Shown here one piece after another: positions 945-60,782 of a DNA stretch of 62,048 nucleotides (position 1 is the first letter of the stretch; every line of letters starts with the position of its first letter). The notes under the pieces are model-generated. The model was not told where the DNA came from. It saw only the letters and a list, made by a program, of their open reading frames with translations, and made no database searches. Source of the stretch: a virus (taxonomy: Duplodnaviria > Caudoviricetes); the IMG/VR virus record IMGVR_UViG_3300027856_000009, positions 1 through 62,048 of that record. One strand, 5' to 3'. The position numbers and the translations under genes were made by a program.

Positions 945-963
945 TGATCGGATTCTAGCGCGG

Positions 964-1008
964 TTGACGCCGAACCGCTTGTCCGACAAGATGCAACACT
1001 GTCAGACA
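964..1008 (+). promoter_or_regulatory. Sigma70-like promoter overlapped by two TGTCnGACA operators, divergent from integrase
   Basis: TTGACG(964-969)-17nt-CAAGAT(987-992); palindromes CTTGTCCGACAAG 978-990 and CTGTCAGACAG 999-1009. Confidence 0.6.
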
Positions 1009-11112: not shown

Positions 11113-11165
11113 GGCTGAATCTTACACCGGACCCCGTTTTGCGACCAGACGTCAGCGCTTGCGGG

Positions 11166-35416: not shown

Positions 35417-35418
35417 GG

Positions 35419-46372: not shown

Positions 46373-47479
46373 TCAGGCCGCAGCGGCCTGGCGAGCCCGG
46401 TTCACGGCCAGCGTCTGGTGCTTGCCCGGCCCGAGCGAGTCGTTCCAGCCGACCGTCCCGTTGCTCCGGTGGCGGACGCTGTACGCCTGGGGCAGCAGCA
46501 GGTCCATGAGCGGCGCGAGCTTCGCGCTGCTGCTGTTCTCGACGTGGTACGTGAAGGTCGTCAGCTCCAGGTGACCGTCGTCCCCCACCAGCTTGCGCAT
46601 CTCCTGCGCGAGGTACTCGGACGCCTCCTGCATGTTCTTGAAGCCGCTCAGGAACTTGCTGTTCCAGTTGCCCTCGGTGTCGACCTCGAAGGTGGTGCTG
46701 CCGATGAGCGGAAGGATCCACGCCATGTCGGCGCACATCGCGTCGATCTGGCTCTTGCTCGGCCGCGGCCAGCACGTCGCGACGCACTCGATGCCGCGGG
46801 AGTGGAAGAGGTCCGCGACCGCCTTCAGGTCGTCGCTGTCCCAGCGCAGGGCCCACGGCACCTGGCTCGACTGCGTGTTCGACTTGTTGATCATCAGCGC
46901 GGCGCGACTGACCTGCATCCGCACGAGGTGGTCGGCGAACTCGGGCTTCTTGACGTCGTGGACCGGGTCGTCGATCCACGCTCCGACGATGACGCCCTCG
47001 GGGATGGCCTTCTGCTCCAGCCACGCGCCCGAGTAGTCGTTGCCCTTGTTGCCGCCGTGCGACAGCTCCTCGGGGATGAGCCACTCGGAGGACCAGAAGC
47101 GGATCTCCTTGCAGCCCTCCTCCACGGCCTGGTCGAAGGCCTTGTCGAGCGCCTCCTCGGGTGTATGGCCGGGCCACGTCTGGTCGTAGGCCGCGAGCCC
47201 GCAACCGATCTCCGTGACGCCCGTGTCGGGCGGGTCCGTCGGGTCGACCGGGATCAGCTCCCAGCTGTCCTTGATGGCCGTCCACGTCTCGGGGCCGCAC
47301 TTGCCGTCGGAGGTCAGCGCGTTGGCCGTCTGCCAGTCGGCCAGCTTGGTGACCGTCTCCGGCCCCCAGATCCCGTCCTCGGTCGCGCCGACGGTCTTCT
47401 GGATGAGCTTGATCTCGCTCTCGCAGTAGCCCTGCTTCTTGTTGTACGCGATCGCGTCGTTGATCTCGTCGTGCGTCAT
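46373..47479 (-). CDS. Putative endolysin: peptidoglycan-binding domain plus glycoside-hydrolase-like barrel
   Basis: IQKTVG..EDGIWGPET...WQ...L.SDGKCGPETW; later FEVDTEG and LLPQAY. Confidence 0.75.
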   Translation of the reverse strand: MTHDEINDAIAYNKKQGYCESEIKLIQKTVGATEDGIWGPETVTKLADWQTANALTSDGKCGPETWTAIKDSWELIPVDPTDPPDTGVTEIGCGLAAYDQTWPGHTPEEALDKAFDQAVEEGCKEIRFWSSEWLIPEELSHGGNKGNDYSGAWLEQKAIPEGVIVGAWIDDPVHDVKKPEFADHLVRMQVSRAALMINKSNTQSSQVPWALRWDSDDLKAVADLFHSRGIECVATCWPRPSKSQIDAMCADMAWILPLIGSTTFEVDTEGNWNSKFLSGFKNMQEASEYLAQEMRKLVGDDGHLELTTFTYHVENSSSAKLAPLMDLLLPQAYSVRHRSNGTVGWNDSLGPGKHQTLAVNRARQAAAA

Positions 47480-47706
47480 CAGACCGCTCCCCGCCAGACA
47501 CGCCGGCCCGTGTAGGTCTTCGTGGTGATGCCGTACCAGAGGCCAAGCCCGATGAGCCCGGTTGCGCCGATCGCCAGAGCCATCTTGAGCCCGCCGGCCG
47601 GAGCGGGTCCCGCGGTCTCCTCGACGGTCTCGGCGATCACCTCCTCGGTGGTGCCGAACCCGTGGAGCATCGTGCGGTGTTGCCGCCTGTAACTACGTCG
47701 TCGCAT
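47479..47706 (-). CDS. Small membrane protein (RRRSY...LHGFG leader)
   Basis: GAGGAG RBS; single TM. Confidence 0.7.
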   Translation of the reverse strand: MRRRSYRRQHRTMLHGFGTTEEVIAETVEETAGPAPAGGLKMALAIGATGLIGLGLWYGITTKTYTGRRVWRGAV

Positions 47707-47715
47707 CGTCTCTCC

Positions 47716-48135
47716 TCACACCCACCGGAACCCGAGGGTCCACATCAGAAACTCGCCTGCCTGCCGGGCCACGTGATCGATGCTCGACTGGGCCGCGAGC
47801 GTGATCAGGAATACGTGGAGCGCGGCCAGGTCGGCGAAGCGCACCTCGTACGAGTCTCTGCTCAGGCCATCCTCGCTCTGGCGCGCGGCGACCCCGATGC
47901 GCTTGGGGTCGAGCATCGGGTGTGCGCACGAGGCCTGCACGGTCGCGACCGCCTCGATGACCGCGAATACCGTGCCCACCTCCTCGGCGTCCTCGAAGAG
48001 GACGGTGTAGACCCACGGCGGCGGCACGACAGCACGGGCGCCGTCCTCGTCTGCATAACGCCAGACATGGCGCACGAACGTCGCGTAGTCCGGGACGATG
48101 CCCATCGGCACATCGAAGCGAGCTGCAGCCTTCAT
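47716..48135 (-). CDS. Hypothetical protein
   Basis: ATGA overlap. Confidence 0.65.
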   Translation of the reverse strand: MKAAARFDVPMGIVPDYATFVRHVWRYADEDGARAVVPPPWVYTVLFEDAEEVGTVFAVIEAVATVQASCAHPMLDPKRIGVAARQSEDGLSRDSYEVRFADLAALHVFLITLAAQSSIDHVARQAGEFLMWTLGFRWV

Positions 48136-48347
48136 CGGGCTCGTGCTTCCTGTCGTAGACGCACGATCTCGTGGTTGCGTGCGTTGTAGATGATGGTGGT
48201 GAGGCCGAGCAGCGCGAGTACCGGACCGGCGTAGGGATGCCCCTGGTCATTGAGCGCGAGGCCGCCCCAGATCATGAGCGGCCCGATGAAGAAGACGTCG
48301 AGCAGGCGGACGGGCTGGGACTTGACCTCGGGGTCCATGGTCACCAC
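48132..48347 (-). CDS. Small two-TM membrane protein
   Basis: KSQPVRLLDVFFIGPLMIWGG...TTIIYN. Confidence 0.7.
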   Translation of the reverse strand: MVTMDPEVKSQPVRLLDVFFIGPLMIWGGLALNDQGHPYAGPVLALLGLTTIIYNARNHEIVRLRQEARAR

Positions 48348-48673
48348 TTCGGGTAGATGCTCTTCACGTCGAGCTTCCCGTGTACGCGAGCATCTTCGAG
48401 CTTGCCCTTGTCGTCGTACTCGACGAAGGCAATCACCTGGCCCTCCTCGGTCATCGTGACCGTCTGAGCCTGGCCCGCGAAATACTCCTCGGGGTCACCC
48501 GGAAGGAGCATGTAGCCGCGCTTCATGTCGGCCTTGGCGCGTCTGTTCATCTCGTTCATCGCCCGCATGGCCGAGCCCAACCGAGCGTACTCGCGCACCT
48601 CCACGTCCTCGATGACACCGGTGGCACCCCAATGCAGCGCGTTGCGCGTCACTACGAATTGCTTGGCCATCAT
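48341..48673 (-). CDS. Hypothetical protein
   Basis: GGAGG RBS. Confidence 0.6.
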   Translation of the reverse strand: MMAKQFVVTRNALHWGATGVIEDVEVREYARLGSAMRAMNEMNRRAKADMKRGYMLLPGDPEEYFAGQAQTVTMTEEGQVIAFVEYDDKGKLEDARVHGKLDVKSIYPKW

Positions 48674-49239
48674 CCCTCCGGCGGCTGCCGCACCTTCAGC
48701 ATCACGTTGTAGGCCCGCATGACCTCCTGGAACTTCAGCTGCGCCTGCGCCTTCTGCGCTGACGTCGCGCTCGGCGGCAACCGGTCCGGGTGCCACTCCA
48801 TCGCGAGCTTGCGATAGGCCTTCTTAATCTGCTCGACGGTCGCGTCCTGCTTCACGCCGAGCACCTTCCAAGGGGGAGCCCCGGGCGGGCGTTGACGCTG
48901 CGGCTGCGGGCGGGCGCCCTGCGTCGGTGCAGTGCGGCGTGCGGCACCTTTCCCGAGGCGGGCGATCTTCTCCTTGGTGGCCAGCCAGAAGAACTTGAAG
49001 CAGTTGCGGCAGAGCCCGAATCCGTTGTCGGGATGCACCATCTCGATGTCGCCGAGCGCAAACTGGTTGCCGCAGCCCACACACGCGAACGCCTGGCGCT
49101 TGTACTCCTCCGAGAGTACTTCGACCTGCCCCGCCCGCAAGCCGGCCACGAAGCCAGACGCTTTGTGGAAGAGGCTGTCGACCGCCATGTCGACGGCTTC
49201 CTCCATGAAGTCGAGCCCGGCCGTCGGCCGCTTCGCCAT
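48670..49239 (-). CDS. J-domain (DnaJ-like) protein with Zn finger
   Basis: CVGC...CRNC; PWKVLGV...IKKAYRKLAMEWHPD...FQEVMRAY. Confidence 0.88.
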   Translation of the reverse strand: MAKRPTAGLDFMEEAVDMAVDSLFHKASGFVAGLRAGQVEVLSEEYKRQAFACVGCGNQFALGDIEMVHPDNGFGLCRNCFKFFWLATKEKIARLGKGAARRTAPTQGARPQPQRQRPPGAPPWKVLGVKQDATVEQIKKAYRKLAMEWHPDRLPPSATSAQKAQAQLKFQEVMRAYNVMLKVRQPPEG

Positions 49240-49532
49240 CAGGGCGCCTCCAGCTCCCGTGCGAGAGCAATGATGAGGAGGTCGATGTCCTCGTCCGCGC
49301 CCACTGCCAGCTCGGGAACCAGGTGACCCTCGTCCTGGCGGTAGGGGGTATCTCCGAAGATGCCCCTCATCTGGTCCGCAAACGCAACCGCGTCCCGGAA
49401 GTGTTCGAGCATGAGCTTCGCGTTGCCGCGCCGCGCCGCCCCAAGAGCTAGCTGAGCGGCCTTCCTCATCCGCTTGTTGAGGCTCTTGATTTGACGGGTC
49501 GCCCGCCTGTCGTCTTTCTGTGTCCAGGCCAT
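49239..49532 (-). CDS. Hypothetical protein
   Basis: MAWTQKDD; translationally coupled. Confidence 0.6.
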   Translation of the reverse strand: MAWTQKDDRRATRQIKSLNKRMRKAAQLALGAARRGNAKLMLEHFRDAVAFADQMRGIFGDTPYRQDEGHLVPELAVGADEDIDLLIIALARELEAP

Positions 49533-49831
49533 CACAGCACTCCAATCACGCCCGTCAGCTGGGCATAGCTTGCGCCTCCGGGCACTCCCCCGCTCCACGT
49601 GCCGCTGAGCGTATCGTACGTACCAGGCGGAAGGGGGACCCGCTCGTAGCCGATGTGGTGCGAGTAGTTCATGGGCATGCCGACGTTGAAGCCGGGTCCC
49701 CAGCCGTAGGGGGAGTACACGGCGCCCGGCGGCGAGAAGCGCTGCGAGTACGGGTCGACGGCCTGCGCGAAGAGCTGCGTCGAGGTCATCGGGGGAAGCG
49801 GTCCCATTCCGAGTGCGCGGTGGTAGCTCAC
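49532..49831 (-). CDS. Tyr/Pro/Gly-rich protein (MSYHRALGMG leader)
   Basis: GTGA overlap; leader similar to 31225..31698. Confidence 0.65.
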   Translation of the reverse strand: MSYHRALGMGPLPPMTSTQLFAQAVDPYSQRFSPPGAVYSPYGWGPGFNVGMPMNYSHHIGYERVPLPPGTYDTLSGTWSGGVPGGASYAQLTGVIGVL

Positions 49832-50144: not shown

Positions 50145-51110
50145 TCAGGCCACCTCCTCCAGTTTCACTTCGATACCGTGGCGGCGGAGCGCGTCCTCGA
50201 CCTTGTAGATCGTCCGGCCACCCTGGCCGTAGCGGCGCGGCACCACGGGCCACTCGCCGTCCCAGTCGATGAGTACGACCTCGCGGCCCTTGCGGCCGAG
50301 CGCCCGGCCATCGGTCATCGCCGCGCACAGCTCCGCCCGGATGTCGAGCGCCTCGCCGTAGGCCAGGTAGATGCCGGGGGGCATTCGCTTCAAGCGTCGA
50401 CGCGCACCGCTGGGCAGCCGCTGGGGTAACTCGGCCTCGCGAGCGGCGTTGATGGAGAATCGGACGCGCTTCACGACCGACGAGGAGGCGGAGAGAGCGC
50501 CTTCGTCGACCTCGACAGTCTCGACCACCTCCACCGGGGGAGCGGGGGGCGATTCTGCGACTGCTAGGGGCAGAACCGGCTCGGGCGCCGGAGACAGGTA
50601 CTCGATGCCCGCAGTGGGCAGGAGGGGCTCGACGGCGACCGGCTCGGGCTCGGGGGCGCAGACGGGGAGGCAGCGGCGCCGCATCTCAGCCGCGGTGATG
50701 CGCGTCAGCTCGGTGAGCCGCGACACCGCGATCATGTGCTTGCGCTCCAGCTCGCGCTCGTCGGCCTTGTGCCACTTCAGCGGCGGCGTGGCGAGGTCGC
50801 CGAGCAGTTCGGGCGCATCGACGAAGCCCTCCGACGCCAGGGCGTCCGCTGCAGCCTCACGCACCCGGCGGGCGTCGGGCAGCTGGTCGATGTCGAAGCC
50901 CAGCTCGTTCGCCAGCTCGATGAGCGACGGGGGGTAGCCGATCTCGTCGATGTTGCAGACGAAGAAGGTGCCGTCGTCGTAGCCGTAGATGCGGTCGTGC
51001 CACTGCATCCGGCGCCCCACGTACTGCAGGATGACGCTGTTGGTCGGCCGATCCGTCTTCTGGCGGATTTCGGAGCGGTACAAGATTCGTTGGCGCGGTT
51101 GTCGGGGCAT
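50145..51110 (-). CDS. Hypothetical protein (321 aa)
   Basis: Long ORF with typical codon usage. Confidence 0.7.
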   Translation of the reverse strand: MPRQPRQRILYRSEIRQKTDRPTNSVILQYVGRRMQWHDRIYGYDDGTFFVCNIDEIGYPPSLIELANELGFDIDQLPDARRVREAAADALASEGFVDAPELLGDLATPPLKWHKADERELERKHMIAVSRLTELTRITAAEMRRRCLPVCAPEPEPVAVEPLLPTAGIEYLSPAPEPVLPLAVAESPPAPPVEVVETVEVDEGALSASSSVVKRVRFSINAAREAELPQRLPSGARRRLKRMPPGIYLAYGEALDIRAELCAAMTDGRALGRKGREVVLIDWDGEWPVVPRRYGQGGRTIYKVEDALRRHGIEVKLEEVA

Positions 51111-51250: not shown

Positions 51251-51943
51251 CTACCTCTTCAAATGGTCAATGATCTTGTCCATCTCCGTTTCGTTAGCGA
51301 GCCAACCGCTGATCTCGACCTCGAAGAGACGGAGGTCGAAACTCGGCGGCCGAAGGACGACCGCCGTAGCCTGAATGGTGTCGCCGGGCTGCGCGTACGC
51401 GGCAAAGTTCTCGTTGGGCATCCTCGGGGTAATGGACCCGGTGCCCTGGTGGATGCTGCCCTGTCCTGCGCGCGGCGCCGTGCCGCCCGCGGTCTGCGGA
51501 TTCACGAGGTCGATGGGCACACCGGTGCCAGGCAGGTTCGTCTGGAAGTCGGTGAGCCCGCGGTTCCCGAGGTTGAACTTGAAGCCGAGGTAGGTCTTCG
51601 ACCTCGACTCGGGCACCGCCACGATGTCCTCGATCCCAATCCCCGAGTGCTGGTAGGCGCTGAACTTCACCTCACGGAGGATGATCCCCTGGTGGGTCGG
51701 CGCCTGGATAGTGGCGATGGGGACATCCCGCGGGAAGGGCGGGAGCCCCGCGGCCTGGATGGGACGCGGGTACGTGGAGAAGAACTGCCGCTGGAAGAAG
51801 AGGCGCGTGCGGCCGGGAAGCGAAAAGGTGAAGCCGTTGACGATCCGAACCGCCACCGGCGTCTTACTCGGACGCGGATACCCCTGCGGCAGCGGCGACC
51901 GCTGCGTCGGAGAGGTGTTGCCGCGTCCGTCGTGGCGTCCCAT
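51251..51943 (-). CDS. Beta-rich putative structural (capsid-associated) protein
   Basis: 230 aa with alternating beta patterns; in the capsid cluster. Confidence 0.5.
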   Translation of the reverse strand: MGRHDGRGNTSPTQRSPLPQGYPRPSKTPVAVRIVNGFTFSLPGRTRLFFQRQFFSTYPRPIQAAGLPPFPRDVPIATIQAPTHQGIILREVKFSAYQHSGIGIEDIVAVPESRSKTYLGFKFNLGNRGLTDFQTNLPGTGVPIDLVNPQTAGGTAPRAGQGSIHQGTGSITPRMPNENFAAYAQPGDTIQATAVVLRPPSFDLRLFEVEISGWLANETEMDKIIDHLKR

Positions 51944-52221
51944 CAGCCCTTCACCACCTTGACGATCATGGCGTAGGGACGGTCCTTCTCGCGACCGTTT
52001 TCGTCCTCGGTGACGCTGAACCGCACGGGCACGAGGTGGCCCCCGTGCTTGCGGCTGTACCCCAAGGACCGCTGGGCCCAGATGCTGAAAATCATGAGCC
52101 GGTCGTGCTTCGCTTTGCGCGCGTTGATGTACCTCTCCAGCGCACGCTCCGCCGGACGGAGCAGGCGGTGGCGGCTGATCACCCGCCCCCTGCCGCTCGT
52201 CATGAGAAGAAAGTGCTGCAC
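51943..52221 (-). CDS. Small basic hypothetical protein
   Basis: Coupled within the operon. Confidence 0.55.
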   Translation of the reverse strand: MQHFLLMTSGRGRVISRHRLLRPAERALERYINARKAKHDRLMIFSIWAQRSLGYSRKHGGHLVPVRFSVTEDENGREKDRPYAMIVKVVKG

Positions 52222-52226
52222 GGTGC

Positions 52227-53153
52227 CTAAACCGCGGGGCTCTGGGCCTGAAGGATTTTGTAGCCGAGCATGGTGAAGTAGAGCGTACCGCCGATCGAGA
52301 CCGACACGCGGCCGATCTCGCCAGCCTGCGTCGGATCGGGCTGCGGCACCTGACCACCCTCGGCGAAGCCGTTGGCGAGCAGCGGGTAGTTGACCTCGGC
52401 GAAGCCCAGGTCCCGCGTCAGCGTCGCCGAGAAGCGCATCGTCGAGCCACGCTCGAAGAAGTCGCTCACCGGGAGGTAGAGCGGACGGTCGAACTCGCTG
52501 AAGAGGTAGCGCGACGGGATCGGCACCTGGTTCTGACGCAGGCGATCGGTGCCCTCGTCGGCGATCTCGAACAGGAAGTCGATCAGGCCGGGGCGGAGGG
52601 TCTGCACCGTCTGCGCGCCCGCGATGGTCTGAGGACCCATCGAGCCGCCGATGTACGCACCGGCGAACGGGTCGGCGGTTGACGCCACAGGGCGCCAGCG
52701 CCCCGTCAGCGGCGTGATGACCTCGGTACCCACCGGAGGGTCGTTCGGACGCCCGCTGTTCTGGTCACCGTACGGACCGAGCGAGTACGTCTTCATCAGG
52801 AAGGCGCTCAGGTAAGTCGTGCAGACGAACGGCCCGTCCATCGACACCTGCTTGGTGTCGCTGAGCCGCTGACCGGCGACCGTGGTCGCGGGCGCGGTCG
52901 GACCGGGGATGTTGATCTGGAAGGTCTGGAAGTAGGGCACCCGCTTGCCGGGGATGTCCTCGATGTACCGGATGCGCGCGGCGGCCTTCTTCAGGGCCTT
53001 GCGGAGCTTGCTCAGCTCGATCTTGTCGTCGGCCTGCTCACCGGCCATCGCCTTGTAGCGACGCAGGAGAGCTTCCATCTGCGCCTCGACGCGCTCGGTC
53101 CGGCTCGCCATCTTGCGGAGGTATTCGGCCATCCGCGGATCATCGTTCGCCAT
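52227..53153 (-). CDS. Putative minor/second capsid protein (N-terminal coiled coil plus beta-rich domain)
   Basis: GGAGG RBS; RVPYFQTF...DGPFVC...LYFTMLGYKI pattern. Confidence 0.5.
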   Translation of the reverse strand: MANDDPRMAEYLRKMASRTERVEAQMEALLRRYKAMAGEQADDKIELSKLRKALKKAAARIRYIEDIPGKRVPYFQTFQINIPGPTAPATTVAGQRLSDTKQVSMDGPFVCTTYLSAFLMKTYSLGPYGDQNSGRPNDPPVGTEVITPLTGRWRPVASTADPFAGAYIGGSMGPQTIAGAQTVQTLRPGLIDFLFEIADEGTDRLRQNQVPIPSRYLFSEFDRPLYLPVSDFFERGSTMRFSATLTRDLGFAEVNYPLLANGFAEGGQVPQPDPTQAGEIGRVSVSIGGTLYFTMLGYKILQAQSPAV

Positions 53154-53201
53154 CTGTCAACCTCCCGGACCTGCGTCCCCTACCCGGCTCCTCGCCACTC
53201 A

Positions 53202-53362
53202 GGGATGGGCAAACCGCTCGTACCCCGAAGGGCACGGTCAATCCCACTCTTGACTCACGTCAATCGCGGCCTCTCACGCGGAACTTGGCTCCGTATCAGA
53301 GGCCGCGAGACGAGCACCGGGGGAGGGGCTGGTGCTCGCCACGCGACCCGGGTCAAACCCGG
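53202..53362 (-). ncRNA. Multi-hairpin structured RNA element downstream of the putative MCP
   Basis: Five consecutive stems including cUUCGg (53219-36) and GUGA (53250-63) tetraloops, an 11-bp stem 53264-74/53298-308 and an 8-bp stem 53311-18/53331-38. Confidence 0.6.
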
Positions 53363-53373
53363 AAGCTGGGGTC

Positions 53374-54171
53374 CTAGAGGACGTCCCTGCTGTGAATACC
53401 GTCGATCAAGTACTTGATATCTTTGGCGATATCGTCGGACCCGGGAACGGTGAGACCATCGGTGCCCTGGACACCGCTGGTGATGACGGAAGCGGGGTCG
53501 AGATCAGACACCTGACCGTTGAGCTGCTCGATGAGTGAGGCGCCCACCGTCTGCCCGATGTTCGATGCGATCGCCACGACCTGGAAACCCTGCCGCGGCG
53601 GCACGAGAATCGGACGGGCCAGGCGCATGAGCGCGGCCGAGGTCGGGACGCCGTTGTTGGCGCGCGGGAGGCGCGTGTCGGCGAAGAAGCCGTCGAGACC
53701 ACCGGCCGCGGGGGTGTACGCGGTGAAGGTGGTGAGCTGCGGCTTGTCACCCGCGATGAACTGCCAGAAGAGCTGGTTCTCCGCCTGGTGGTAGAGCTTG
53801 TGTACCCTCTGGATGCGATCCGCCGTGACGGTCCCGATGGCACCGGCGACGTTCGCGATCTGCGGCTGGCTGCCGATCGGCTGCTGCGCCGCGGCCGCGT
53901 TCGCACGGGGGCTCTCCGCGTTGAAGCGGAAGTAGGTCCAGACGCGCACCGCGAGGGTGACAAAAGTCTGGTCGCTGGGAAAAAATCCCCCAGTTGTTAA
54001 ATTGGAAACCGCGACGTCGGCTCCCTGGCGCACGAAGAGCTGCGAGCGGGACTGGACCGCTCCGAAGACACCGACGTTGCCGGCGCGCAGGTCTCCCGCT
54101 CCATCTATGCGGATGAGGGAGTCGTAGAAGGGCTGGTGAACGCGCTCGCGCGTTCCGACGATCTTGGGCAT
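53374..54171 (-). CDS. Putative major capsid protein (single jelly-roll-like)
   Basis: 265 aa, beta-rich; N-terminal QPFYDS and C-terminal YLIDG..SRDVL recalled as typical of tailless-virus capsid proteins (unverified); flanked by structured UTRs. Confidence 0.5.
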   Translation of the reverse strand: MPKIVGTRERVHQPFYDSLIRIDGAGDLRAGNVGVFGAVQSRSQLFVRQGADVAVSNLTTGGFFPSDQTFVTLAVRVWTYFRFNAESPRANAAAAQQPIGSQPQIANVAGAIGTVTADRIQRVHKLYHQAENQLFWQFIAGDKPQLTTFTAYTPAAGGLDGFFADTRLPRANNGVPTSAALMRLARPILVPPRQGFQVVAIASNIGQTVGASLIEQLNGQVSDLDPASVITSGVQGTDGLTVPGSDDIAKDIKYLIDGIHSRDVL

Positions 54172-54373: not shown

Positions 54374-55090
54374 CTACCTCATCCCTGCGAAGAGGTGACG
54401 AGAGAACATCCCGCCTGTGTATCCGAGGCCGCTCGTGGCCGTGGTGTTCTCGGCGACCGCCGCGTGCGTCAGGAGATGGCGGGGGGGACGTCCTCGCGGA
54501 CCCGCCTCGGGGGTCGGTGCCGACGCGATGACCTGCGGCAGTATCAGCGCGGGATGATCCAGGACGACTCGCTCCATCTCGCCCGGCCTCATCGGCATGG
54601 GCGCGGTGCCAGGAAGCGGCGCTGGAGCAGACGGAGGCCACGGCGCAACACCGGGATCGCCGACCACCTGACAGGCCGGGTCCGCCCGACACGCGGCATC
54701 GTCAGCAGCGCGCTGGGCTGCCATCTCCGCCTGAGCTGCGGGGCTCGCAGTGGCGGTCATCGCCAGAGCCATGAACTCCCCCATCATCGGGGCGAGCACC
54801 GGCATGCACTCCGGCGGCGGCTCGGAGCCAATCAAGTCAACGAAACAGCGCTTTCGGTCTCCGGCGCCCGAACAGTGGCGCATGTACATGGCCCGAAGCG
54901 TCGCGATGTCCATTCCCGGAGGGATATCGGCTGCGTCCTTCGGCAGGGCGTCCCACTGGGCGGCGCACTGGGCGTCCTCGACGGGAACGCCGTTGCCGTT
55001 GGCGCCGTTCTCACTGCTCTTCTTCCAGAGCCACCAGGCCCCGACGCCCGCGGCGCCGACAAGCAGCCAGTTCATTGGGGTCATCTTCAT
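54374..55090 (-). CDS. Membrane-anchored protein with C-terminal RHLFAGM tag
   Basis: N-terminal TM, Cys pairs, ends GLGYTGGMFSRHLFAGMR. Confidence 0.8.
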   Translation of the reverse strand: MKMTPMNWLLVGAAGVGAWWLWKKSSENGANGNGVPVEDAQCAAQWDALPKDAADIPPGMDIATLRAMYMRHCSGAGDRKRCFVDLIGSEPPPECMPVLAPMMGEFMALAMTATASPAAQAEMAAQRAADDAACRADPACQVVGDPGVAPWPPSAPAPLPGTAPMPMRPGEMERVVLDHPALILPQVIASAPTPEAGPRGRPPRHLLTHAAVAENTTATSGLGYTGGMFSRHLFAGMR

Positions 55091-55363
55091 GTCATCCCCG
55101 CGAAGAGGTGTCGGGCGTAGATACCGCCCGCGTAGCCCATGCCATCAGGCGTGGACCGCACGACATCGACCATCTCGCCCGGCGCCATGTCGGGCGGCAC
55201 GGGCACGGGCGGCACGGGCACGGGCACGGGCGGCACGGGCACGATCGCCGCGCCGTTACCGTTGCCGTTGCCGTTGCCGTTCTGGCTCTGCTTGTAGAGC
55301 CACCAGGCCCCGACGCCCGCAGCGCCGACAAGCAACCAGTTCATTGGGGACATCTTCATGTCA
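55027..55363. repeat. 68-bp near-identical direct repeat encoding duplicated N-terminal TM anchors
   Basis: 55027-55094 vs 55296-55363, 3 mismatches. Confidence 0.85.
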
Positions 55364-55368
55364 GCCAC
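55087..55368 (-). CDS. Small membrane protein with (NG)n, (PV)n and RHLFAGM tag
   Basis: Ends GMGYAGGIYARHLFAGMT. Confidence 0.8.
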   Translation of the reverse strand: MADMKMSPMNWLLVGAAGVGAWWLYKQSQNGNGNGNGNGAAIVPVPPVPVPVPPVPVPPDMAPGEMVDVVRSTPDGMGYAGGIYARHLFAGMT

Positions 55369-56203
55369 CCATCATCCCGGAGAAGAGATGCCGGGCGTAG
55401 ATGCCGCCCGCGTGACCACGATCACCGCGCGAGCCGGCGAAGCGCTCCGTCACCCGCCGGACCTGCGGGAAGTTGGTGGCCGGGAGAGCCCAGCCGGTGG
55501 GGATGACGGTGGAGACGGGCTCGACCCGGTCCATCGTCGCCTCGACCGCGGCCTGATCGGCGGGGTCGCCGAGCGAGCCGAGCATCGACTGCGAGTAGTA
55601 CGCGGAGAGCCCGTCGCCGGACTCCTCGGCCGACTCCGCGGCGGGGGCGACGACGTCGACCATCTCACCCGGCGCCATGTCCAGGGGAGCGGTGCCGGGG
55701 AGCGGTGCCACACCGTTCCCGTTCCCGTTCCCGTTGGTCAGCGCTGCCGCCGCGCGACCTCCGCCGAGCATCGGGGTGTCGCGAAGGTAGGCCTCGGCCG
55801 CCGCGAGTCCCATCCCGAGCACGATGGCCCCGGAGTTCTTCGCGAGCATGCCGCCCTTCATCGAGCGGGCGCCCGCGAAGACGGCCGGGATGCCGACCGC
55901 CGCGGCGATCAGCTTCCCGGTCTTGGGGTCGGTGGTCCCCCAGTCCTCCATCGCCACCATGTTGCCCAGGTAGCGCGCGGCCATGAAACCGGCCGTCGCA
56001 CCGAGTACCGGCACGACAACCGTCTTCACGAGGTCGGCACCGAAGACGTTGCGACGCAACCTCCGGCGACGACTGCTACGCCGCTTGCTGCTGCGCCGAC
56101 GCCGACGCCGATTGGCGACCACGTACCTGGGGTTGCGCGTGGACCGCCTCCGCCGGCTGCTCCGGCGGCGGCTGGTCCTACGACTGCGACGACGACGTGC
56201 CAT
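55361..56203 (-). CDS. Arg-rich (protamine-like) N-terminus plus membrane domain plus RHLFSGM tag
   Basis: MARRRRSRRTSRR...RNPRYVVANRRR...RRNVFGADL; ends GHAGGIYARHLFSGMMGG. Confidence 0.85.
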   Translation of the reverse strand: MARRRRSRRTSRRRSSRRRRSTRNPRYVVANRRRRRRSSKRRSSRRRRLRRNVFGADLVKTVVVPVLGATAGFMAARYLGNMVAMEDWGTTDPKTGKLIAAAVGIPAVFAGARSMKGGMLAKNSGAIVLGMGLAAAEAYLRDTPMLGGGRAAAALTNGNGNGNGVAPLPGTAPLDMAPGEMVDVVAPAAESAEESGDGLSAYYSQSMLGSLGDPADQAAVEATMDRVEPVSTVIPTGWALPATNFPQVRRVTERFAGSRGDRGHAGGIYARHLFSGMMGG

Positions 56204-56237: not shown

Positions 56238-59003
56238 CTAGAACATCCCCGCGAAGAGGTGCCGAGCGTAGAGGCCACCGGCGTAGCCCTTGCCCTCGGG
56301 GGTCACCAGGCTGGTCGGGACCGGACGCGCGTAGGGCATCGTGCGGTTGACCGGCAGCGCCAGGTCGGTGGGGGTGTGGATGGACGCGAAGGGAGGCTGC
56401 TCCCGGGCGTACATCTTCTTGAGGCGCTGGTCCTCTTCCGCGCCGAGACCGGCAGCGGCGTAGAGGGTTCCCATGCCCGCGGCGGCTTCCATGACCTGAC
56501 CGGTGCCGGCGGCGGCCTCCATCACGTCCATGAGGCCGTCGACGCCCGCCATGTTGGCGGGATCGACACCCTCGGCGTACCCCGCGGTGGCGTACTCGGT
56601 ACCGAGGCCCGCGGCGGCGTAGAGCGTGTTGCCCAGGCCGCTGAGGGGCTGGTCGACATACTCACCGAAGCCGGGGGTCTCGACGTACGCGCCGAGGCCG
56701 TTGAGAGGCGAACTGACGTACTCGCCCAGGCCGTTGAGAGGCGAACTGACGTACTCGCCCATGCCGTTGAGCGGCGAGCTGACGTACTCGCCGAACCCAC
56801 CGCTGAGGTAGGCCGCGGCGTCACCGGTCACGCGGCCGAGCAGCCGGTCGGTGAGCGCGAGGCCCATGCCGGTGATCAGCGCACCCTGGTTGTCCTTGAT
56901 CACCTTCACCTTGGTCGAGAGACCGAGAGTGGCGATGATGCCGAGCACGTTCGCGGCGATCTTCGTGTTCTCCGCGTCGGCGGCCGGCTTGTCCTTGTCG
57001 AGGATGCCCCGGATCGCCTCGATGTTCGCGAGACCGTTCGAGAGGAAGCGGGCCGCGACGAAGCCTGCGGTGCCACCGATGACCGGCGTCACCACGTCCT
57101 TCATCAGGTCGGCGCCGAAGAACTGGTTGCGACGCAACCTCCTCCGCCTGCCACGACGCCGGTTCGCGACCACGTACCTGGGGTTGCGCCGCGTCCTACG
57201 GCGCCTGCTGTTCCTGCGCATGCTCGTCCTCCGGTTCTTCGACACGCGACGCCGCGGGTGCCTCTTGCGCTCCGCGTAGCCAGAAGTCTTGGCCCTGCGG
57301 TGCGAATCCTTGGCCGCCCCACCGAAGCGATACTTGCGCACGTACGCGCGCTCGCTGACGCTGGCGGGAATGAGCACGGGGTAGCCCGTGAGCCTCTTGC
57401 GACGCCCCTTCTTGTCGGGGCGCCCCTTGCTCTTGGGGCCGTACTCCACGACCTGATAGAGACGTCCGCGCGCCCGGCCCATCCGGTACTTCCCGCGTCC
57501 GCCGTACTTCACCTTCGAGGCAGCCAGCATGTTGCGACTCAGCCTCCTCCTGCTCCGCCTGCGGCGGCTGCCGCGACGGCTCGTGCGACGCGACCTGCGC
57601 CGACGGTTCCTGTAGAGCCCAGGCCTGCTCCTGCGACGCCTGCTGCTCCGACGCCTGCTGCTCCGACGCCGACGCCGGTTGGCCGTCATGCGACGAGCGC
57701 GAGTCCCGCGGTGGCTTGCACCGATCGCGCGCGAGCGGCGACCGCCCTTGCGCGAGGTCCGGCGCTTCGAGAGCCGTCCGCGCCCCTTGGCGATCGGGTA
57801 GCTGAGGATGGAGGGACGTCCCGAGCGATGCTTCGAGGAGCGCCGCACGCGAGCGACGGCCGGCATGTACCCCTTGCTCAGATACTTGTCGACGTATTCG
57901 CGACCCGTGCGCCTGACGCGCCGCCGACCCATGTAGTAGCCGCTCGACGCCCGGCGCCTGCTGCCACGACGCGAGCTGCGCCTCCGACGCGCCTTGCCGC
58001 GCGACGTACGCCTCTTGGGTGCCGTTCCGGCCCGACGCGAGCGGGCCGCCTTGCTCGTCCGCTTCTTGTACGCCGCGACACCGCGGCGAGCCTCCGAGCG
58101 AGTCACGCGGAGCTTGGTCCCCTTGACCCGACGCGTCGAGCGCCTCTTCCGCCACCCCTTCAGAGCTGCGGCGCGCCGCGAAGCCTTCGTCGACCGACGC
58201 TTGCTCCCGCGCCTGCTGGTGCGCGCCTTGCCCTTGCCCGACGCCCGACGACGCTTCGCCCAGCCCTTCTTCGCGGCCGCGCTACGCGACGCCTTCGTCA
58301 TGCGACGCTTGCCTCCGCGTTTGCTGGTGCGCTTGGAGGACCTCCTCTTCTTCTTGCCGAAGGTGCGCTCCCAGCCACCGCGATAGGCCGCGCTGTTGCG
58401 CCTCACGCGACGACGCCCACGGCGGCTCGTCCGGCGACGGCCGCTGCGCCTCCGCCTGCTGGTCCGCTTGCTCGTCCGCCTCCGCCTGTTGGCCGTGGGC
58501 CTCCGACGACGCGTGCCGCTGCGCTTGGTGTTGCGCTTCGGCTTACGCCGACGGCCAGGGGACGAGACCTTGACGCCCCGAGACCCCGCCCGCTCCGAAA
58601 CGGCGCTTCCGCTCCGTCCGCGAGGGTTGGACCGCATGGCGCGACGCAGGGCTCCGATGTTGTAGGCCATTCCGCTCCTCCTGTTACTCAGCAGCTTCTT
58701 GCTGACGGGACGTGTAAGGATCGTGCCCTTGTCGTCCACGGGATAGAGACGAGCGTCCGACTTCGGATGTCGCTTCTTCCAGCCCAGCGCCTGCTTCAAC
58801 GATTTGTACTTTGGACTCGCGTGCCGATGCCGCTGTCCGCGCCCCTCGACCCACTGAAGAGGGTTCTCGGACACCCGGCGCCGACGGCGCCCGCTCGGGT
58901 TCACCACCGTGAGGTGCGAGACCCCCGGATTGGGCTCCATGCCTGGAGAGCGCTCGTAGGCTCGCGCCTTCGTCGTGTCGCTCGATTTGTAGACCAGTGC
59001 CAT
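56238..59003 (-). CDS. 921-aa Arg-rich core-like polyprotein
   Basis: About 500 aa of Arg/Ser/Lys-rich blocks separated by Asn; membrane domain paralogous to 55361..56203; G[LMF]G repeats; ends GYAGGLYARHLFAGMF. Confidence 0.85.
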   Translation of the reverse strand: MALVYKSSDTTKARAYERSPGMEPNPGVSHLTVVNPSGRRRRRVSENPLQWVEGRGQRHRHASPKYKSLKQALGWKKRHPKSDARLYPVDDKGTILTRPVSKKLLSNRRSGMAYNIGALRRAMRSNPRGRSGSAVSERAGSRGVKVSSPGRRRKPKRNTKRSGTRRRRPTANRRRRTSKRTSRRRRSGRRRTSRRGRRRVRRNSAAYRGGWERTFGKKKRRSSKRTSKRGGKRRMTKASRSAAAKKGWAKRRRASGKGKARTSRRGSKRRSTKASRRAAALKGWRKRRSTRRVKGTKLRVTRSEARRGVAAYKKRTSKAARSRRAGTAPKRRTSRGKARRRRSSRRGSRRRASSGYYMGRRRVRRTGREYVDKYLSKGYMPAVARVRRSSKHRSGRPSILSYPIAKGRGRLSKRRTSRKGGRRSRAIGASHRGTRARRMTANRRRRRSSRRRSSRRRRSRPGLYRNRRRRSRRTSRRGSRRRRSRRRLSRNMLAASKVKYGGRGKYRMGRARGRLYQVVEYGPKSKGRPDKKGRRKRLTGYPVLIPASVSERAYVRKYRFGGAAKDSHRRAKTSGYAERKRHPRRRVSKNRRTSMRRNSRRRRTRRNPRYVVANRRRGRRRRLRRNQFFGADLMKDVVTPVIGGTAGFVAARFLSNGLANIEAIRGILDKDKPAADAENTKIAANVLGIIATLGLSTKVKVIKDNQGALITGMGLALTDRLLGRVTGDAAAYLSGGFGEYVSSPLNGMGEYVSSPLNGLGEYVSSPLNGLGAYVETPGFGEYVDQPLSGLGNTLYAAAGLGTEYATAGYAEGVDPANMAGVDGLMDVMEAAAGTGQVMEAAAGMGTLYAAAGLGAEEDQRLKKMYAREQPPFASIHTPTDLALPVNRTMPYARPVPTSLVTPEGKGYAGGLYARHLFAGMF
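56696..56792 (-). repeat. 33-bp tandem repeat (EYVSSPLNG[LM]G x3)
   Basis: Two near-exact copies plus one variant. Confidence 0.85.
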
Positions 59004-59188: not shown

Positions 59189-59677
59189 TCAGGTCTTCGG
59201 CTCAACACCGCCGCCCACTGCCGCCGGCATGAGCGAATCGGCACTTCGAGGGCGCGTAGCGGAACGCGGAAGCGAGCGCTCGATGGACGCCATCCGCCTG
59301 TTCATCTGCTCGATGGCTTCGCGCATCTTCTGGGTCTCGTCGCGGTCCGACCACCACTTCGGGCGGAGATTTTCGTCGAGCGCTTTCGGTCCCAGGTGGA
59401 TCGCGTGAAGCTCGTCGGTCTGGTCGGCAATCCTGATCACACGCTCGCTCAGGGTGGCCAGGACAGTCGACACGCTGCCGAGCGCAGTCGTGATGTTGGC
59501 GAGCGAGGTGGCTACCTCGCCCATCACCGCCTCGGCCGTCTTCGGCGCGCCGTCGCGCTTGTCGGCCTGCGTCTTCTGCCACTGAATGATCTTCCCGACG
59601 AACTGGAAGGTCAGGAAGAGCACGGCCAGGACGAACATGCCCCACGCTGGAATCTCGGCCCCGTCGATACCACTCAT
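59189..59677 (-). CDS. Single-TM coiled-coil membrane protein
   Basis: MSGIDG..., TM, heptads; ATGA overlap. Confidence 0.65.
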   Translation of the reverse strand: MSGIDGAEIPAWGMFVLAVLFLTFQFVGKIIQWQKTQADKRDGAPKTAEAVMGEVATSLANITTALGSVSTVLATLSERVIRIADQTDELHAIHLGPKALDENLRPKWWSDRDETQKMREAIEQMNRRMASIERSLPRSATRPRSADSLMPAAVGGGVEPKT

Positions 59678-60444
59678 CCGTCGATCCCGTCCTTCAGCAC
59701 GCGCAGCTTGCCGCCGGCCATCGCGCCGAGGAATCCCGACGAACCGTCCGGCTGCTTCTGCGGCGAATACAGCAGAAGAAGATTCCCCGACGGAGAGCTG
59801 AAAAGATAGCAACCCCGAGGGTTTACCTCGTACGTCTCACCGTCATCATCGCGGCGGATGAAGACGCCCAGGCAGTAGCCCAGGAGCGCGATCGCCTTCG
59901 GACGCGCGACCGGCAGGCGCTGGCCACGGGCCGAGCTGCGGCGCTGACGACCGACGCGGCTCCGCGGCGCCTCCGCCGCCGGCTCGTAGAAACGCACCCC
60001 TTTCGCGACGGGGTAGGGCTTGTCATCGCCGGCATCGTGGAGGTGCTTGTAGTCCTCGTCGGTGCCATCGGACTTCCACTTGTCGGTCCGGTACATGACC
60101 CCCAAGGCGTCCCCCACCCGCACCCACTCGGTCGGGACATCGTGGTCCAGCTCGGCCACGCGGATGGGGGTCTTGTCGTGGAAGATCTCGTAGCGATCCA
60201 TGGCCGCGTCGAGCGCGTTGCCGCGGACCGCATCGGGGTCGATGTCGTCGCCGAAGCGCGTGTCCATCGAGGCACCACGGAGGCGGCTCGCGCGGTTTGG
60301 CGTCATGCCGTCGGCAGCTGTCGAATCGACCAGGCGTTCGGCCAAGGTCATCGGCCGCCGCCAATGTCGGGGGGCTGAGCGCGACGGAGGCGCGCTGTTG
60401 GGCTCCAGAAGGGGACGGGATGTACGGCGGCGACGGATCTTCAC
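59674..60444 (-). CDS. Hypothetical structural-module protein with RRRRTSR N-terminus
   Basis: GTGA overlap; EPNS and TPNR motifs. Confidence 0.65.
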   Translation of the reverse strand: MKIRRRRTSRPLLEPNSAPPSRSAPRHWRRPMTLAERLVDSTAADGMTPNRASRLRGASMDTRFGDDIDPDAVRGNALDAAMDRYEIFHDKTPIRVAELDHDVPTEWVRVGDALGVMYRTDKWKSDGTDEDYKHLHDAGDDKPYPVAKGVRFYEPAAEAPRSRVGRQRRSSARGQRLPVARPKAIALLGYCLGVFIRRDDDGETYEVNPRGCYLFSSPSGNLLLLYSPQKQPDGSSGFLGAMAGGKLRVLKDGIDG

Positions 60445-60782
60445 TTCTTGTCCTTCCACCAGAACCAGCCAGTAGCCACGGCGACGCCGACAGCGAACAT
60501 GAGCCACCCGTTGCCCGTGACGCCGGTGGAGCGGCCCGCGTCGTCACCGTTGTCGCCGAGAGCGCCCGACCGGCGCCTCACCTCGCCGCGCGCGAGGTGG
60601 TCGTAGCCTATGAGGCGCGCGTTGGAGGGGAGCGCCTTCACGCCGGTGCTCGGGGCCGCACCGATAGCGGAATCGCCGGAGGAGCTGTGCGGCAGGGGGT
60701 CGTCGCCGACGCTGACGGGAGTGGGCGTTCGATAGACGCCCCACGCGTTGCGATCCCAGTCCCAGACAGAGTAGAGGGCCAT
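60441..60782 (-). CDS. Small membrane protein (GALG, C-terminal TM)
   Basis: MALYSVWDW...; GAGGA RBS. Confidence 0.75.
   Translation of the reverse strand: MALYSVWDWDRNAWGVYRTPTPVSVGDDPLPHSSSGDSAIGAAPSTGVKALPSNARLIGYDHLARGEVRRRSGALGDNGDDAGRSTGVTGNGWLMFAVGVAVATGWFWWKDKK

What the first reader, a model, noticed from the sequence alone, without database searches (positions are those of the whole stretch)
51251..54171. Three adjacent beta-rich proteins as possible single jelly-roll capsid genes in a large integrase-bearing genome without tail genes
Seen: 265, 308 and 230-aa beta-rich ORFs, many membrane proteins, and no recognisable terminase, portal, HK97 or tail gene in 62 kb. Known: single jelly-roll membrane viruses such as P23-77 and SH1 use two capsid proteins and have much smaller genomes. 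Inference: an unusually large temperate member of such a lineage.
Basis: inference. Interest (0 to 1): 0.75.

Follow-up and report, generated by a model that had tools for sequence, protein, structure and literature searches.

The report
Conserved jelly-roll capsid-like gene triad
Three neighbouring genes of unknown family are the shared signature of a group of large uncultured bacterial viruses that show none of the usual phage head, tail or DNA-packaging genes, and one of the three is predicted to fold like the shell proteins of membrane-containing icosahedral viruses.

The parts
53374..54171 (-). Gene A, 265 aa. Most conserved protein of the genome, with a conserved core and two indel-rich variable loops. 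Candidate major shell protein; fold unresolved.
   Evidence: GC3 0.83. No Pfam or PHROG family. 81% identical to G001, the highest of all window proteins. 268 homologs, all unnamed or 'hypothetical'. Alignment A1. AF2 pLDDT 47.8.
52227..53153 (-). Gene B, 308 aa. N-terminal helix (residues 6-58) plus a C-terminal eight-stranded jelly roll (70-301). Candidate capsomer or spike protein.
   Evidence: GC3 0.90. AF2 pLDDT 83.5, pTM 0.72. Fold matches. 50 representative clusters. Four relatives carry two tandem domains.
51943..52221 (-). 92-aa basic ORF between B and C. Absent at this place in G001, where C starts 18 nt after B.
   Evidence: GC3 0.89. G001 gene coordinates. No family.
51251..51943 (-). 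Gene C, 230 aa. Third member of the conserved triad. Fold not modelled.
   Evidence: GC3 0.87. jackhmmer finds a C-like ORF shortly downstream of B in all 24 distant loci L046-L069. Alignment A5. No family.
56238..59003 (-). 921-aa protein, 29% Arg+Lys, with RRRRSRR-type runs, hydrophobic segments and the C-terminal motif YAGGLYARHLFAGMF. Candidate DNA-condensing, membrane-associated core protein.
   Evidence: Translation. Composition. Homolog of 904 aa just upstream of A in G001. A 746-887 aa ORF sits at the same place in the 8 distant loci examined. tblastn similarity detected in 7 of 24 distant loci.
54374..56203 (-). Three smaller paralogs (238, 93 and 280 aa) that share the same C-terminal GG(I/M)(Y/F)(A/S)RHLF(A/S)GM motif. 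The 280-aa one has an Arg-rich N-terminus and a transmembrane segment.
   Evidence: Translations. C-termini and TM segment 58-76. G001 homolog of 247 aa.
59674..60782 (-). 277-aa and 113-aa module genes conserved in G001. The 277-aa one is also conserved in the distant subclade.
   Evidence: tblastn to G001 at 46% and 60% identity. G001 homolog detected in 11 of 24 distant loci and in G005.
50145..51110 (-). 321-aa gene directly downstream of C, conserved in G001. Function unknown.
   Evidence: GC3 0.89. 39% identity to G001 69573-70421. No family.
46373..49545 (-). Downstream end of the module: a DnaJ-domain protein (within 48670-49545; true start probably internal), small membrane ORFs, and a lysin with a peptidoglycan-binding domain (46373-47479).
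   Evidence: DnaJ 1.2e-15 and PG_binding_1 5.8e-08. TM segments. The same DnaJ and lysin neighbours occur in G001 and in distant loci.
3..989 (-). Tyrosine integrase, cut by the window end.
   Evidence: Phage_integrase 3.7e-20. phrog_1 8.4e-33. The ORF runs off the end.

Best explanation
A, B and C are virion shell proteins (capsomer and vertex or spike components) of a previously undescribed lineage of large bacterial viruses. The window is a fragment, about 45%, of one such genome.

Proposed mechanism:
1. The late module first encodes a set of membrane-anchored proteins with polybasic tails, plus a roughly 900-aa protamine-like Arg/Ser-rich protein. These condense the DNA on or inside a lipid-protein core.
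2. A (the most conserved protein, with variable surface loops), B (a jelly roll on a long N-terminal helix) and C then form the outer icosahedral shell over that core.
3. No packaging motor of either known type is encoded. The genome would therefore be enclosed by condensation and co-assembly, as described for the archaeal virus SPV1, rather than pumped into a preformed head.
4. The DnaJ-domain protein, lysin and holin/spanin-like genes that follow serve assembly and release.

Shown:
- The genes are real.
- A-B-C synteny holds across a deep clade.
- A and B are the best-conserved genes and almost the only genes shared across that clade.
- B's predicted jelly-roll fold.
- The absence of HMM-detectable hallmark genes in complete genomes.

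Inferred:
- The virion role of each protein.
- The membrane.
- DNA condensation by the Arg-rich proteins.
- The lack of a motor.
For: 1. Real genes with no known family.

2. The relatives are large genomes. B has 9 viral loci at 62-71% identity and A has 18 at 33-81%, mostly on contigs of 111-298 kb. A B-subfamily profile found 37 loci. G001, G004, G005, G006 and G007 are records with direct terminal repeats, 100% complete by CheckV, of 136-179 kb.

3. Synteny. In 24 distant loci, A lies just upstream of B in 24 of 24 (B detected by tblastn in 22 of 24). A C-like ORF follows B in 24 of 24.

4. Hallmark-like conservation. Between the window and G001, A (81%) and B (71%) are the most conserved proteins, against 26-63% for other alignments over 100 aa. 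Between complete G001 and G005, BLASTP at 1e-5 finds only six shared proteins: A, B, the 261-aa module protein, two glycosyltransferases and a phosphatase. phmmer adds the first module gene.

5. Fold of B. pLDDT 83.5; helix 6-58 plus eight strands. Best solved neighbours of residues about 62-307:
. The top Foldseek rows are the same kinds of capsid proteins, but with E >= 4.5e-3.

6. Four of four two-domain relatives carry two complete B domains in tandem (i-Evalues 1e-22 to 1e-32 against a profile built without them). This is the architecture of double jelly-roll capsid proteins.

7. No rival morphogenesis module was found.
- Pfam on 293 G001 ORFs and PHROGs on 149 gave no terminase, portal, capsid or tail protein. 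A relaxed PHROG scan of 30 large unknown ORFs gave nothing structural.
- The same negative result holds for 137 G005 ORFs and 145 ORFs of 8 distant loci.
- Seven hallmark Pfam families searched in six frames were found in 0 of 5 complete genomes each.

8. [quoted passage not shown] Among its nine function-assigned ORFs, none is an ATPase.
Against: - No experimental or expression data exist. No RNA run holds the stretch.
- A long N-terminal coiled-coil-like helix followed by a jelly roll also fits a fibre or spike.
- C was not folded.
- A, B and C show no profile similarity to one another (probability under 1%).
- Absence of terminase, portal and HK97 capsid rests on sequence profiles only; no other protein of these genomes was folded.
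- Atlas clusters of A and C carry 'Uroviricota' labels on the few members with a record.
- Much of the other gene content (Gam/Gp157, GP88, DUF3310, endolysins) is common in tailed phages.
- The strict hydropathy scan finds few transmembrane segments in the window part of the module.
Confidence: 0.45

Rival explanations
1. The clade consists of tailed phages (Caudoviricetes) whose terminase, portal and HK97-fold capsid genes are too divergent for Pfam and PHROG profiles. On this reading A, B and C are accessory virion proteins, such as decoration, fibre or baseplate proteins, which often contain jelly-roll-like sandwiches.
For: - Genome size and much gene content are typical of large tailed phages: Gam/Sipho_Gp157, GP88, DUF3310, MoxR+VWA, thymidylate synthase, endolysins.
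- Atlas clusters of A and C are labelled mostly 'Viruses, commonest Uroviricota'.
- The triad sits just before the lysis genes, which is where tail fibres often lie.
Against: - Terminase large subunits are normally the easiest phage proteins to detect (established knowledge). Yet none was found among 293 G001 ORFs (Pfam), 149 G001 ORFs (PHROGs) or 137 G005 ORFs, nor in six-frame searches of three terminase, two portal and one HK97 capsid family in 5 complete genomes, 0 of 5 each.
- The six largest unknown G001 ORFs have no PDB sequence relative.
- The genes shared by the two subclades are A, B and their module neighbours, not any candidate head gene.
Confidence: 0.2
2. The virus is non-tailed, but B is not a shell protein. 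Instead it is a coiled-coil-stalked receptor-binding spike with a jelly-roll head, comparable to PRD1 P5 or an adenovirus fibre knob (a recalled analogy). The shell would be built by A alone or by proteins not yet recognised.
For: - B has a 53-residue N-terminal helix at pLDDT 86-95 in front of the sandwich. Residues 1-60 match only coiled coils, and profile hits to PDB sequences are coiled coils.
- A is more conserved than B (81% against 71%).
- B varies a good deal in length across relatives (198-376 aa).
Against: - Trimeric fibre heads (TNF/C1q-like, adenovirus knob) are not among the 50 listed matches, whereas shell proteins of SPV1, SH1, HHIV-2, P23-77, PRD1 and PBCV-1 are. A family not listed is not excluded, however.
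- Tandem duplication of the B domain in four relatives is the known route to double jelly-roll shell proteins.
- B is one of only six proteins shared between G001 and G005, whereas receptor-binding proteins usually turn over fastest (established knowledge).
Confidence: 0.15
3. The elements are not viruses but large circular mobile elements of plasmid type. On this reading A, B and C have a non-virion role, for instance as secreted or surface proteins.
For: - 'Direct terminal repeats' on an assembled contig are also what a circular replicon gives (established knowledge).
- G001 carries ParB-like genes, PcfJ, DUF932, ART-PolyVal and an AEP primase, which are frequent on conjugative elements.
- No virion hallmark was detected by sequence.
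Against: - A has no match in 72,556 plasmid records.
- No conjugation genes appeared in the Pfam scans of G001 or G005.
- Lysis genes (amidase, M23, SLT, PG-binding, holin- and spanin-like) and phage-type genes are present.
- The records are in IMG/VR with CheckV completeness estimates.
- B's fold neighbours are mostly capsid proteins.
Confidence: 0.1

Closest known systems
Portogloboviridae (Sulfolobus polyhedral virus 1, SPV1)
   Same: - SPV1 has two single jelly-roll shell proteins (VP4 hexamers, VP10 pentamers), an inner lipid layer with sub-capsomer proteins, and a nucleoprotein core.
- Among its few assignable genes are a glycosyltransferase and a methyltransferase, and no ATPase is listed (ICTV profile PMC8459092, read whole).
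- The present clade likewise has a jelly-roll protein, basic and membrane proteins next to it, conserved glycosyltransferases and no detectable packaging ATPase.
   Different: - SPV1 infects hyperthermophilic archaea and has a 20-kb circular genome. These genomes are 136-179 kb, carry peptidoglycan-directed lysins and turn up in bacterial MAG bins.
- There is no sequence similarity to any PDB chain.
- Which SPV1 protein the matched chains represent was not checked.
- The basic proteins here are long, Arg/Ser-rich and partly membrane-anchored.
P23-77, SH1, HHIV-2 and HCIV-1 group (viruses with two vertical single jelly-roll capsid proteins; Helvetiavirae in the abstract of PMC8328091, seen in the listing)
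   Same: - The capsid-like genes are adjacent.
- Membrane proteins lie in the same module.
   Different: - No FtsK/HerA- or A32-type ATPase was found, although most members of that realm share one (abstract of PMC8328091, listing).
- There is no sequence similarity.
- The genome is about 5-10 times larger than the roughly 17-31 kb recalled for those viruses (recalled, from no call).
- There are three conserved genes rather than two, and the folds of A and C are unknown.
Double jelly-roll capsid proteins (PRD1 P3, PM2 P2, PBCV-1 Vp54, vaccinia D13)
   Same: - Four B relatives carry two tandem domains.
- The nearest Pfam-named Atlas clusters to A are the P2_N/P2_C and P3_C families, at scores of 0.75-0.76. 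This is a lead only, below the tool's 0.9 mark.
   Different: - The window's B has one domain.
- No Pfam match of A, B or C to these families at E <= 0.01.
- No A32-like ATPase.
- The genomic context of the tandem-domain relatives could not be fetched. They sit on contigs of at most 11 kb.
Large tailed phages (Caudoviricetes)
   Same: Genome size; terminal repeats; integrase; Gam/Gp157; GP88; helicases; nucleotide-metabolism genes; endolysins.
   Different: None of the three defining morphogenesis genes is detectable in complete genomes.

Membership tests
P23-77/SH1-type viruses (two vertical single jelly-roll capsid proteins) | Two adjacent genes for single jelly-roll major capsid proteins | tested here: inconclusive
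   [not shown]
P23-77/SH1-type viruses (two vertical single jelly-roll capsid proteins) | FtsK/HerA- or A32-type packaging ATPase encoded with the capsid genes | tested here: not met
   Pox_A32 was found in 0 of 5 complete relatives. FtsK_SpoIIIE gave 2 of 5, both below the cut-off (16 and 14.8 bits against 24) and both inside helicase genes. No such family was found among the 74 window ORFs or 293 G001 ORFs.
P23-77/SH1-type viruses (two vertical single jelly-roll capsid proteins) | Sequence relationship to VP16/VP17 or VP4/VP7 | tested here: not met
   The profile of A gave 0 PDB sequences at E <= 10. The profile of B gave only coiled-coil or antibody chains at E 0.8-5.8.
P23-77/SH1-type viruses (two vertical single jelly-roll capsid proteins) | Internal lipid membrane in the virion | not testable with these tools
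   Only indirect evidence: membrane-anchored, polybasic-tailed proteins in the same module.
Portogloboviridae (SPV1-like) | Single jelly-roll shell proteins homologous to VP4/VP10 | tested here: inconclusive
   [not shown]
Portogloboviridae (SPV1-like) | Roughly 20-kb circular genome in hyperthermophilic archaea | tested here: not met
   Relatives are 136-179 kb, carry peptidoglycan-binding and amidase lysins, and occur in bacterial MAG bins, 4 of 9 of them Planctomycetota.
Caudoviricetes (tailed phages) | Large terminase subunit | tested here: not met
   Terminase_6N, TerL_ATPase and Terminase_3 were each found in 0 of 5 complete genomes. No terminase family was found in hmmscan of G001, G005 or the window. 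This is a sequence-profile test only.
Caudoviricetes (tailed phages) | Portal protein | tested here: not met
   Phage_portal and SPP1_portal were each found in 0 of 5. The one PHROG labelled 'portal protein' that matched in the window did so through a NUDIX domain (Pfam NUDIX 9.2e-20). This is a sequence-profile test only.
Caudoviricetes (tailed phages) | HK97-fold major capsid protein | tested here: inconclusive
   Phage_capsid was found in 0 of 5, and no capsid family appeared in any hmmscan. The fold can escape sequence profiles, and only A and B were modelled.
Double jelly-roll capsid viruses (PRD1/PM2-like) | Capsid protein with two jelly rolls in one chain | tested here: not met
   The window's B has a single domain. 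Two-domain forms exist only in 4 distant relatives of unknown context.

The most novel reading that the evidence does not exclude
A-B-C mark a lineage of large (about 95-180 kb) bacterial viruses, possibly of Planctomycetota and other phyla, that is separate from all described virus groups. Its members would build a membrane-containing icosahedral particle from single jelly-roll proteins without any packaging ATPase, condensing their DNA with membrane-anchored protamine-like proteins. The B family would contain both single and tandem-double jelly-roll forms, and so capture the step from single to double jelly-roll capsid proteins.
Probability: 0.3. Interest if true: 0.9.

Novelty: new variant of a known kind. 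Interest (0 to 1): 0.78.

Why it matters
Large viruses of bacteria are so far known only as tailed phages. A 2026 review (passages seen) places large genomes in only two realms, and its only examples from prokaryote hosts are jumbo and mega phages. From recall, the known jelly-roll, membrane-containing viruses of bacteria and archaea have genomes under about 50 kb.

A clade of 136-179 kb bacterial virus genomes whose only shared core is a jelly-roll-containing gene triad, with no terminase, portal, HK97 capsid or A32/FtsK ATPase, would be one of two things. It could be a second, independent route to large virions in bacteria. Or it could be a group of tailed phages whose head genes lie beyond current profile detection. 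Either result is useful for virus discovery pipelines, which rely on those hallmarks.

The tandem-domain relatives of B offer a concrete test case for how double jelly-roll capsid proteins arose. The arginine-rich, membrane-anchored proteins suggest a way of packing DNA that can be tested.

Tried and rejected
- Complex prediction with A, C (residues 28-230) and B (60-308, the scored partner): verdict 'no answer', score 0.00. This is no evidence either way.
- The look-up of sequencing runs for RNA: no RNA holder listed; one DNA-type run held 0.22 of the words.
- Context of the tandem-domain B relatives: no locus found in viral contigs or in metagenome contigs.
- Short B relative P0126: no viral locus.
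- Alignments A2 and A6 were too diverse for the search for related loci, so sub-alignment A4 was used instead.
- BFVD search with B: one unnamed hit at E 6.7e-4; the rest are weak and many are CRESS-virus capsid proteins.
- Atlas leads for A (P2_N/P2_C/P3_C at 0.75-0.76) and for C (DUF6143 at 0.87): not confirmed by Pfam scans.
- Pfam scan of the 51 B-family members: only coiled-coil noise.
- Profile-profile comparison among A, B and C: probability under 1%.
- Walker-A motif scan of G001: only helicases, the MoxR-type ATPase, an exonuclease-like ORF and one doubtful overlapping ORF.
- PHROG hits of the G001 M23 peptidase to families labelled 'minor head protein' or 'tape measure': these are matches to the M23 domain, not evidence of a tail (Pfam Peptidase_M23 2e-24).
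- Literature: six searches surfaced no description of this clade. This does not show that none exists. Supplementary files were not consulted.
- P0158, a 1783-aa repeat protein in the B search, matched only a 46-residue stretch. It was dropped from the alignment as spurious.
Full report
**What is at the coordinates**

The window is 66% GC, so long spurious ORFs abound. Codon-position GC separates real frames from these. Three minus-strand genes stand out:

| Gene | Coordinates | Length | GC3 |
|---|---|---|---|
| A | 53374-54171 | 265 aa | 0.83 |
| B | 52227-53153 | 308 aa | 0.90 |
| C | 51251-51943 | 230 aa | 0.87 |

The longer 368-aa reading of the third ORF is not coding upstream of about 51950. 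A separate 92-aa ORF (51943-52221) fills that gap.

None of the three matches any family in Pfam or PHROGs. None has a tblastn match in 50,697 GenBank phage records. A has no match in 72,556 plasmid records.

**What the window is**

The window is an IMG/VR virus record, linear and estimated 45% complete. Its lack of terminase, portal, capsid and tail families (0 of 74 ORFs in Pfam) therefore proves little by itself. In PHROGs, the only 'portal' label was matched by a NUDIX hydrolase through its NUDIX domain, and a 'head and packaging' category sits on an endolysin family.

Recognisable genes in the window include:
- a tyrosine integrase cut by the window end;
- GP88;
- two GT4 glycosyltransferases and an FkbM-type methyltransferase;
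- a UvrD helicase with an inserted endonuclease- and intein-like segment;
- an SNF2 helicase;
- Gam/Gp157;
- a PcfJ/pentapeptide protein;
- a DnaJ-domain protein;
- a lysin with a peptidoglycan-binding domain;
- NUDIX;
- holin- and spanin-like small membrane ORFs.

**Relatives**

B has 9 viral-contig loci at 62-71% identity. A has 18 at 33-81%. Most lie on contigs of 111-298 kb. G001 and G004 (160 and 162 kb) have direct terminal repeats and are rated 100% complete, as are G005-G007 (136-179 kb).

By tblastn, window positions 47.7-61.2 kb (minus strand) are collinear with G001 57.7-72.3 kb. The window ends inside the module and lacks the part that corresponds to G001 44.7-57.7 kb.

A has 268 homologs in the large protein collection. 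The best 120 are 69-94% identical, and none is named beyond 'hypothetical'.

A profile of A found 9 loci in MAGs. By record titles, four are Planctomycetota (Phycisphaeraceae, Planctomycetota, two Pirellulales). The others are labelled Deltaproteobacteria, Acidobacteriota, Pseudomonadota, Saccharibacteria and Pseudomonadales. Binning of viral contigs is unreliable, so the host is only hinted at.

**The triad is a conserved signature**

A profile of a B subfamily found 37 viral loci. In the 24 loci of the distant subclade:
- A sits directly upstream of B in 24 of 24, with B itself seen by tblastn in 22 of 24;
- jackhmmer started from C finds a C-like ORF shortly downstream of B in 24 of 24;
- a 746-887 aa ORF precedes A in the 8 loci I gene-called, and similarity to the window's 921-aa arginine-rich protein was detectable in 7 of 24;
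- a DnaJ-domain ORF follows within a few kb in 10 of 24.

Conservation ranks A and B at the top:
- Between the window and G001, A (81%) and B (71%) are the most conserved proteins. Other alignments over 100 aa reach 26-63%.
- Between the complete genomes G001 and G005, BLASTP at 1e-5 finds only six shared proteins: A, B, a 261/209-aa module protein, two glycosyltransferases and a dual-specificity phosphatase. phmmer adds the first module gene, 775/842 aa.

Genes that alone persist across otherwise unrelated genomes are, in virus evolution, typically the capsid genes. That last step is inference.

**Folds**

*Gene B.* The representative search gave 50 clusters, and a 51-row alignment gave a good model: pLDDT 83.5, pTM 0.72, helix 6-58 and eight strands between residues 70 and 301. 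Foldseek against the PDB found nothing at E <= 1e-3. Its top rows were SGIV, vaccinia D13, PBCV-1, papillomavirus L1 and HHIV-2 capsid proteins.

|---|---|---|
| SPV1 6oj0_T | 8.4 | rmsd 3.9, 139 residues aligned of 178 |
| PBCV-1 capsid chain | 7.8 | |
| peptidylglycine monooxygenase | 7.7 | non-viral enzyme |
| HCIV-1 | 6.7 | |
| EhV-201 | 6.5 | |
| STIV A223 | 6.5 | |
| P23-77 VP17 | 6.4 | |

BFVD gave one unnamed hit at E 6.7e-4 and many weak CRESS-virus capsid rows.

*Tandem forms.* Four relatives (P0139, P0145, P0155, P0163) contain two complete B domains in tandem. Against a profile built without them, each domain covers nearly the whole profile, with i-Evalues of 1e-22 to 1e-32. They lie on unnamed contigs of at most 11 kb, and their context could not be retrieved.

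*Relationships among the three.* A, B and C show no profile-profile similarity to each other. Profiles of A and B find no meaningful PDB sequence.

*Atlas feature search.* It places A and C in unnamed viral clusters. The nearest Pfam-named clusters are PM2 P2 and PRD1 P3 families for A (0.75-0.76) and DUF6143 for C (0.87). All are below the tool's level of trust and unconfirmed by Pfam.

**Is another morphogenesis module hidden elsewhere?**

I scanned G001 as follows:
- Pfam on 149 GC3-supported ORFs;
- PHROGs on the same 149;
- Pfam on 144 further ORFs covering the gaps;
- relaxed PHROGs (E <= 0.5) on 30 large unknown ORFs.

These gave no terminase, portal, capsid, tail, FtsK/A32 ATPase or DNA polymerase family. 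The only 'head' or 'tail' labels came from the M23 peptidase domain.

The distant subclade gave the same result. Pfam on 137 ORFs of complete G005 found none, although two collagen-repeat proteins, an SLT, an amidase, DnaB and AAA ATPases are present. PHROGs on 145 ORFs around the triad in 8 distant loci also found none.

Six-frame searches in five complete genomes gave 0 of 5 for each of Terminase_6N, TerL_ATPase, Terminase_3, Phage_portal, SPP1_portal, Phage_capsid and Pox_A32. The controls in known genomes rang. FtsK_SpoIIIE gave two sub-threshold hits (16 and 14.8 bits; cut-off 24). One lies in a 953-aa ORF with helicase motifs, judged by eye. The other lies in a DnaB helicase (DnaB_C 1.3e-84).

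The six largest unknown G001 ORFs have no PDB sequence relative.

All of this is sequence-level evidence. Divergent HK97, portal or terminase folds are not excluded.

**The surrounding module**

Upstream of A the window encodes four paralogs (238, 93, 280 and 921 aa) that end in a shared GG(I/L/M)(Y/F)(A/S)RHLF(A/S)GM motif. The 921-aa protein is 29% Arg+Lys, with long RRRRSRR-type runs and hydrophobic segments. The 280-aa protein has an Arg-rich N-terminus and a transmembrane segment.

In G001, the part of the module that the window lacks encodes at least seven proteins whose C-terminal hydrophobic segment is followed by a polybasic tail of the type KKPVTSNRRRR. It also encodes a 775-aa coiled-coil-rich protein.

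Membrane-anchored polybasic tails and a protamine-like protein next to jelly-roll genes fit a particle in which DNA is condensed against an inner membrane-protein layer. That is how the ICTV profile describes SPV1: shell proteins VP4 and VP10 with jelly-roll folds, sub-capsomer proteins and an inner lipid layer, a nucleoprotein core, and no ATPase among its assignable genes (whole text read). This parallel is inference. No membrane or DNA binding was tested.

**Verdict**

- A jelly-roll capsid-like protein and the absence of tailed-phage hallmarks hold up, and they extend to complete genomes.
- The proposed kinship with P23-77 and SH1 fails the ATPase test and has no sequence support.
- Two of the three folds remain unknown.

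I give about 45% to A-B-C being shell proteins of a new lineage of large, probably membrane-containing bacterial viruses. The alternatives are:
- about 20% for tailed phages with undetectable head genes;
- about 15% for B being a spike rather than a shell protein;
- about 10% for a non-viral element.

Six literature searches found no description of such a clade. The complex prediction and the RNA-run search gave no usable answer.

Noticed in passing
window 21807-24809 (-): The UvrD-type helicase is 1000 aa and carries an internal segment matching DUF559/MTES_1575 endonuclease and intein-splicing profiles (residues about 343-570). The G001 homolog is 669 aa without this segment. In G001 the SNF2 helicase instead carries Hint/LAGLIDADG/intein matches.
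   Followed up: no
window 2195-2268 (+): tRNA-Arg (anticodon CCT), lying between the integrase and the GP88-like gene.
   Followed up: no
G001 65853-67690 (L031:8853-10690): In G001, a PAPS-reductase/DUF3440 gene and a ParB-like gene are inserted between A and B. In the window and in the distant subclade A and B are adjacent, so this looks like a mobile two-gene cassette.
   Followed up: partly
window 10851-16093 (+); G001 80392-84456; G005 108807-113160: Two GT4 glycosyltransferases, with methyltransferases nearby, are among the very few genes shared by the two subclades. They may glycosylate virion proteins; this was not tested.
   Followed up: no
G001 146795-147091 (L035:13795-14091) and G005 110171-110596 (L089:15171-15593): ORFs matching the Acb2/Tad1 hairpin domain. 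These are candidate anti-CBASS/Thoeris sponges.
   Followed up: no
window 41233-43101 (-): A 622-aa protein combining a PcfJ-like domain with pentapeptide repeats. G001 has similar proteins, one of 802 aa.
   Followed up: no
window 48670-49545 (-); G001 71362-71955; distant loci: A DnaJ-domain protein is kept a few kb downstream of the triad across the clade: in 10 of 24 distant loci by tblastn, and twice in G005.
   Followed up: partly
window as a whole against G001: Gene order outside the late module is heavily rearranged between the window and G001. For example, the window's integrase/GP88 end corresponds to G001 140-144 kb, next to genes found at 73-88 kb in G001.
   Followed up: no
G005 34836-35873 and 39334-41163 (L085:15839-16873, L086:1337-3163): Two collagen-triple-helix repeat proteins (345 and 609 aa) in the distant complete genome. 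They could be fibres.
   Followed up: no
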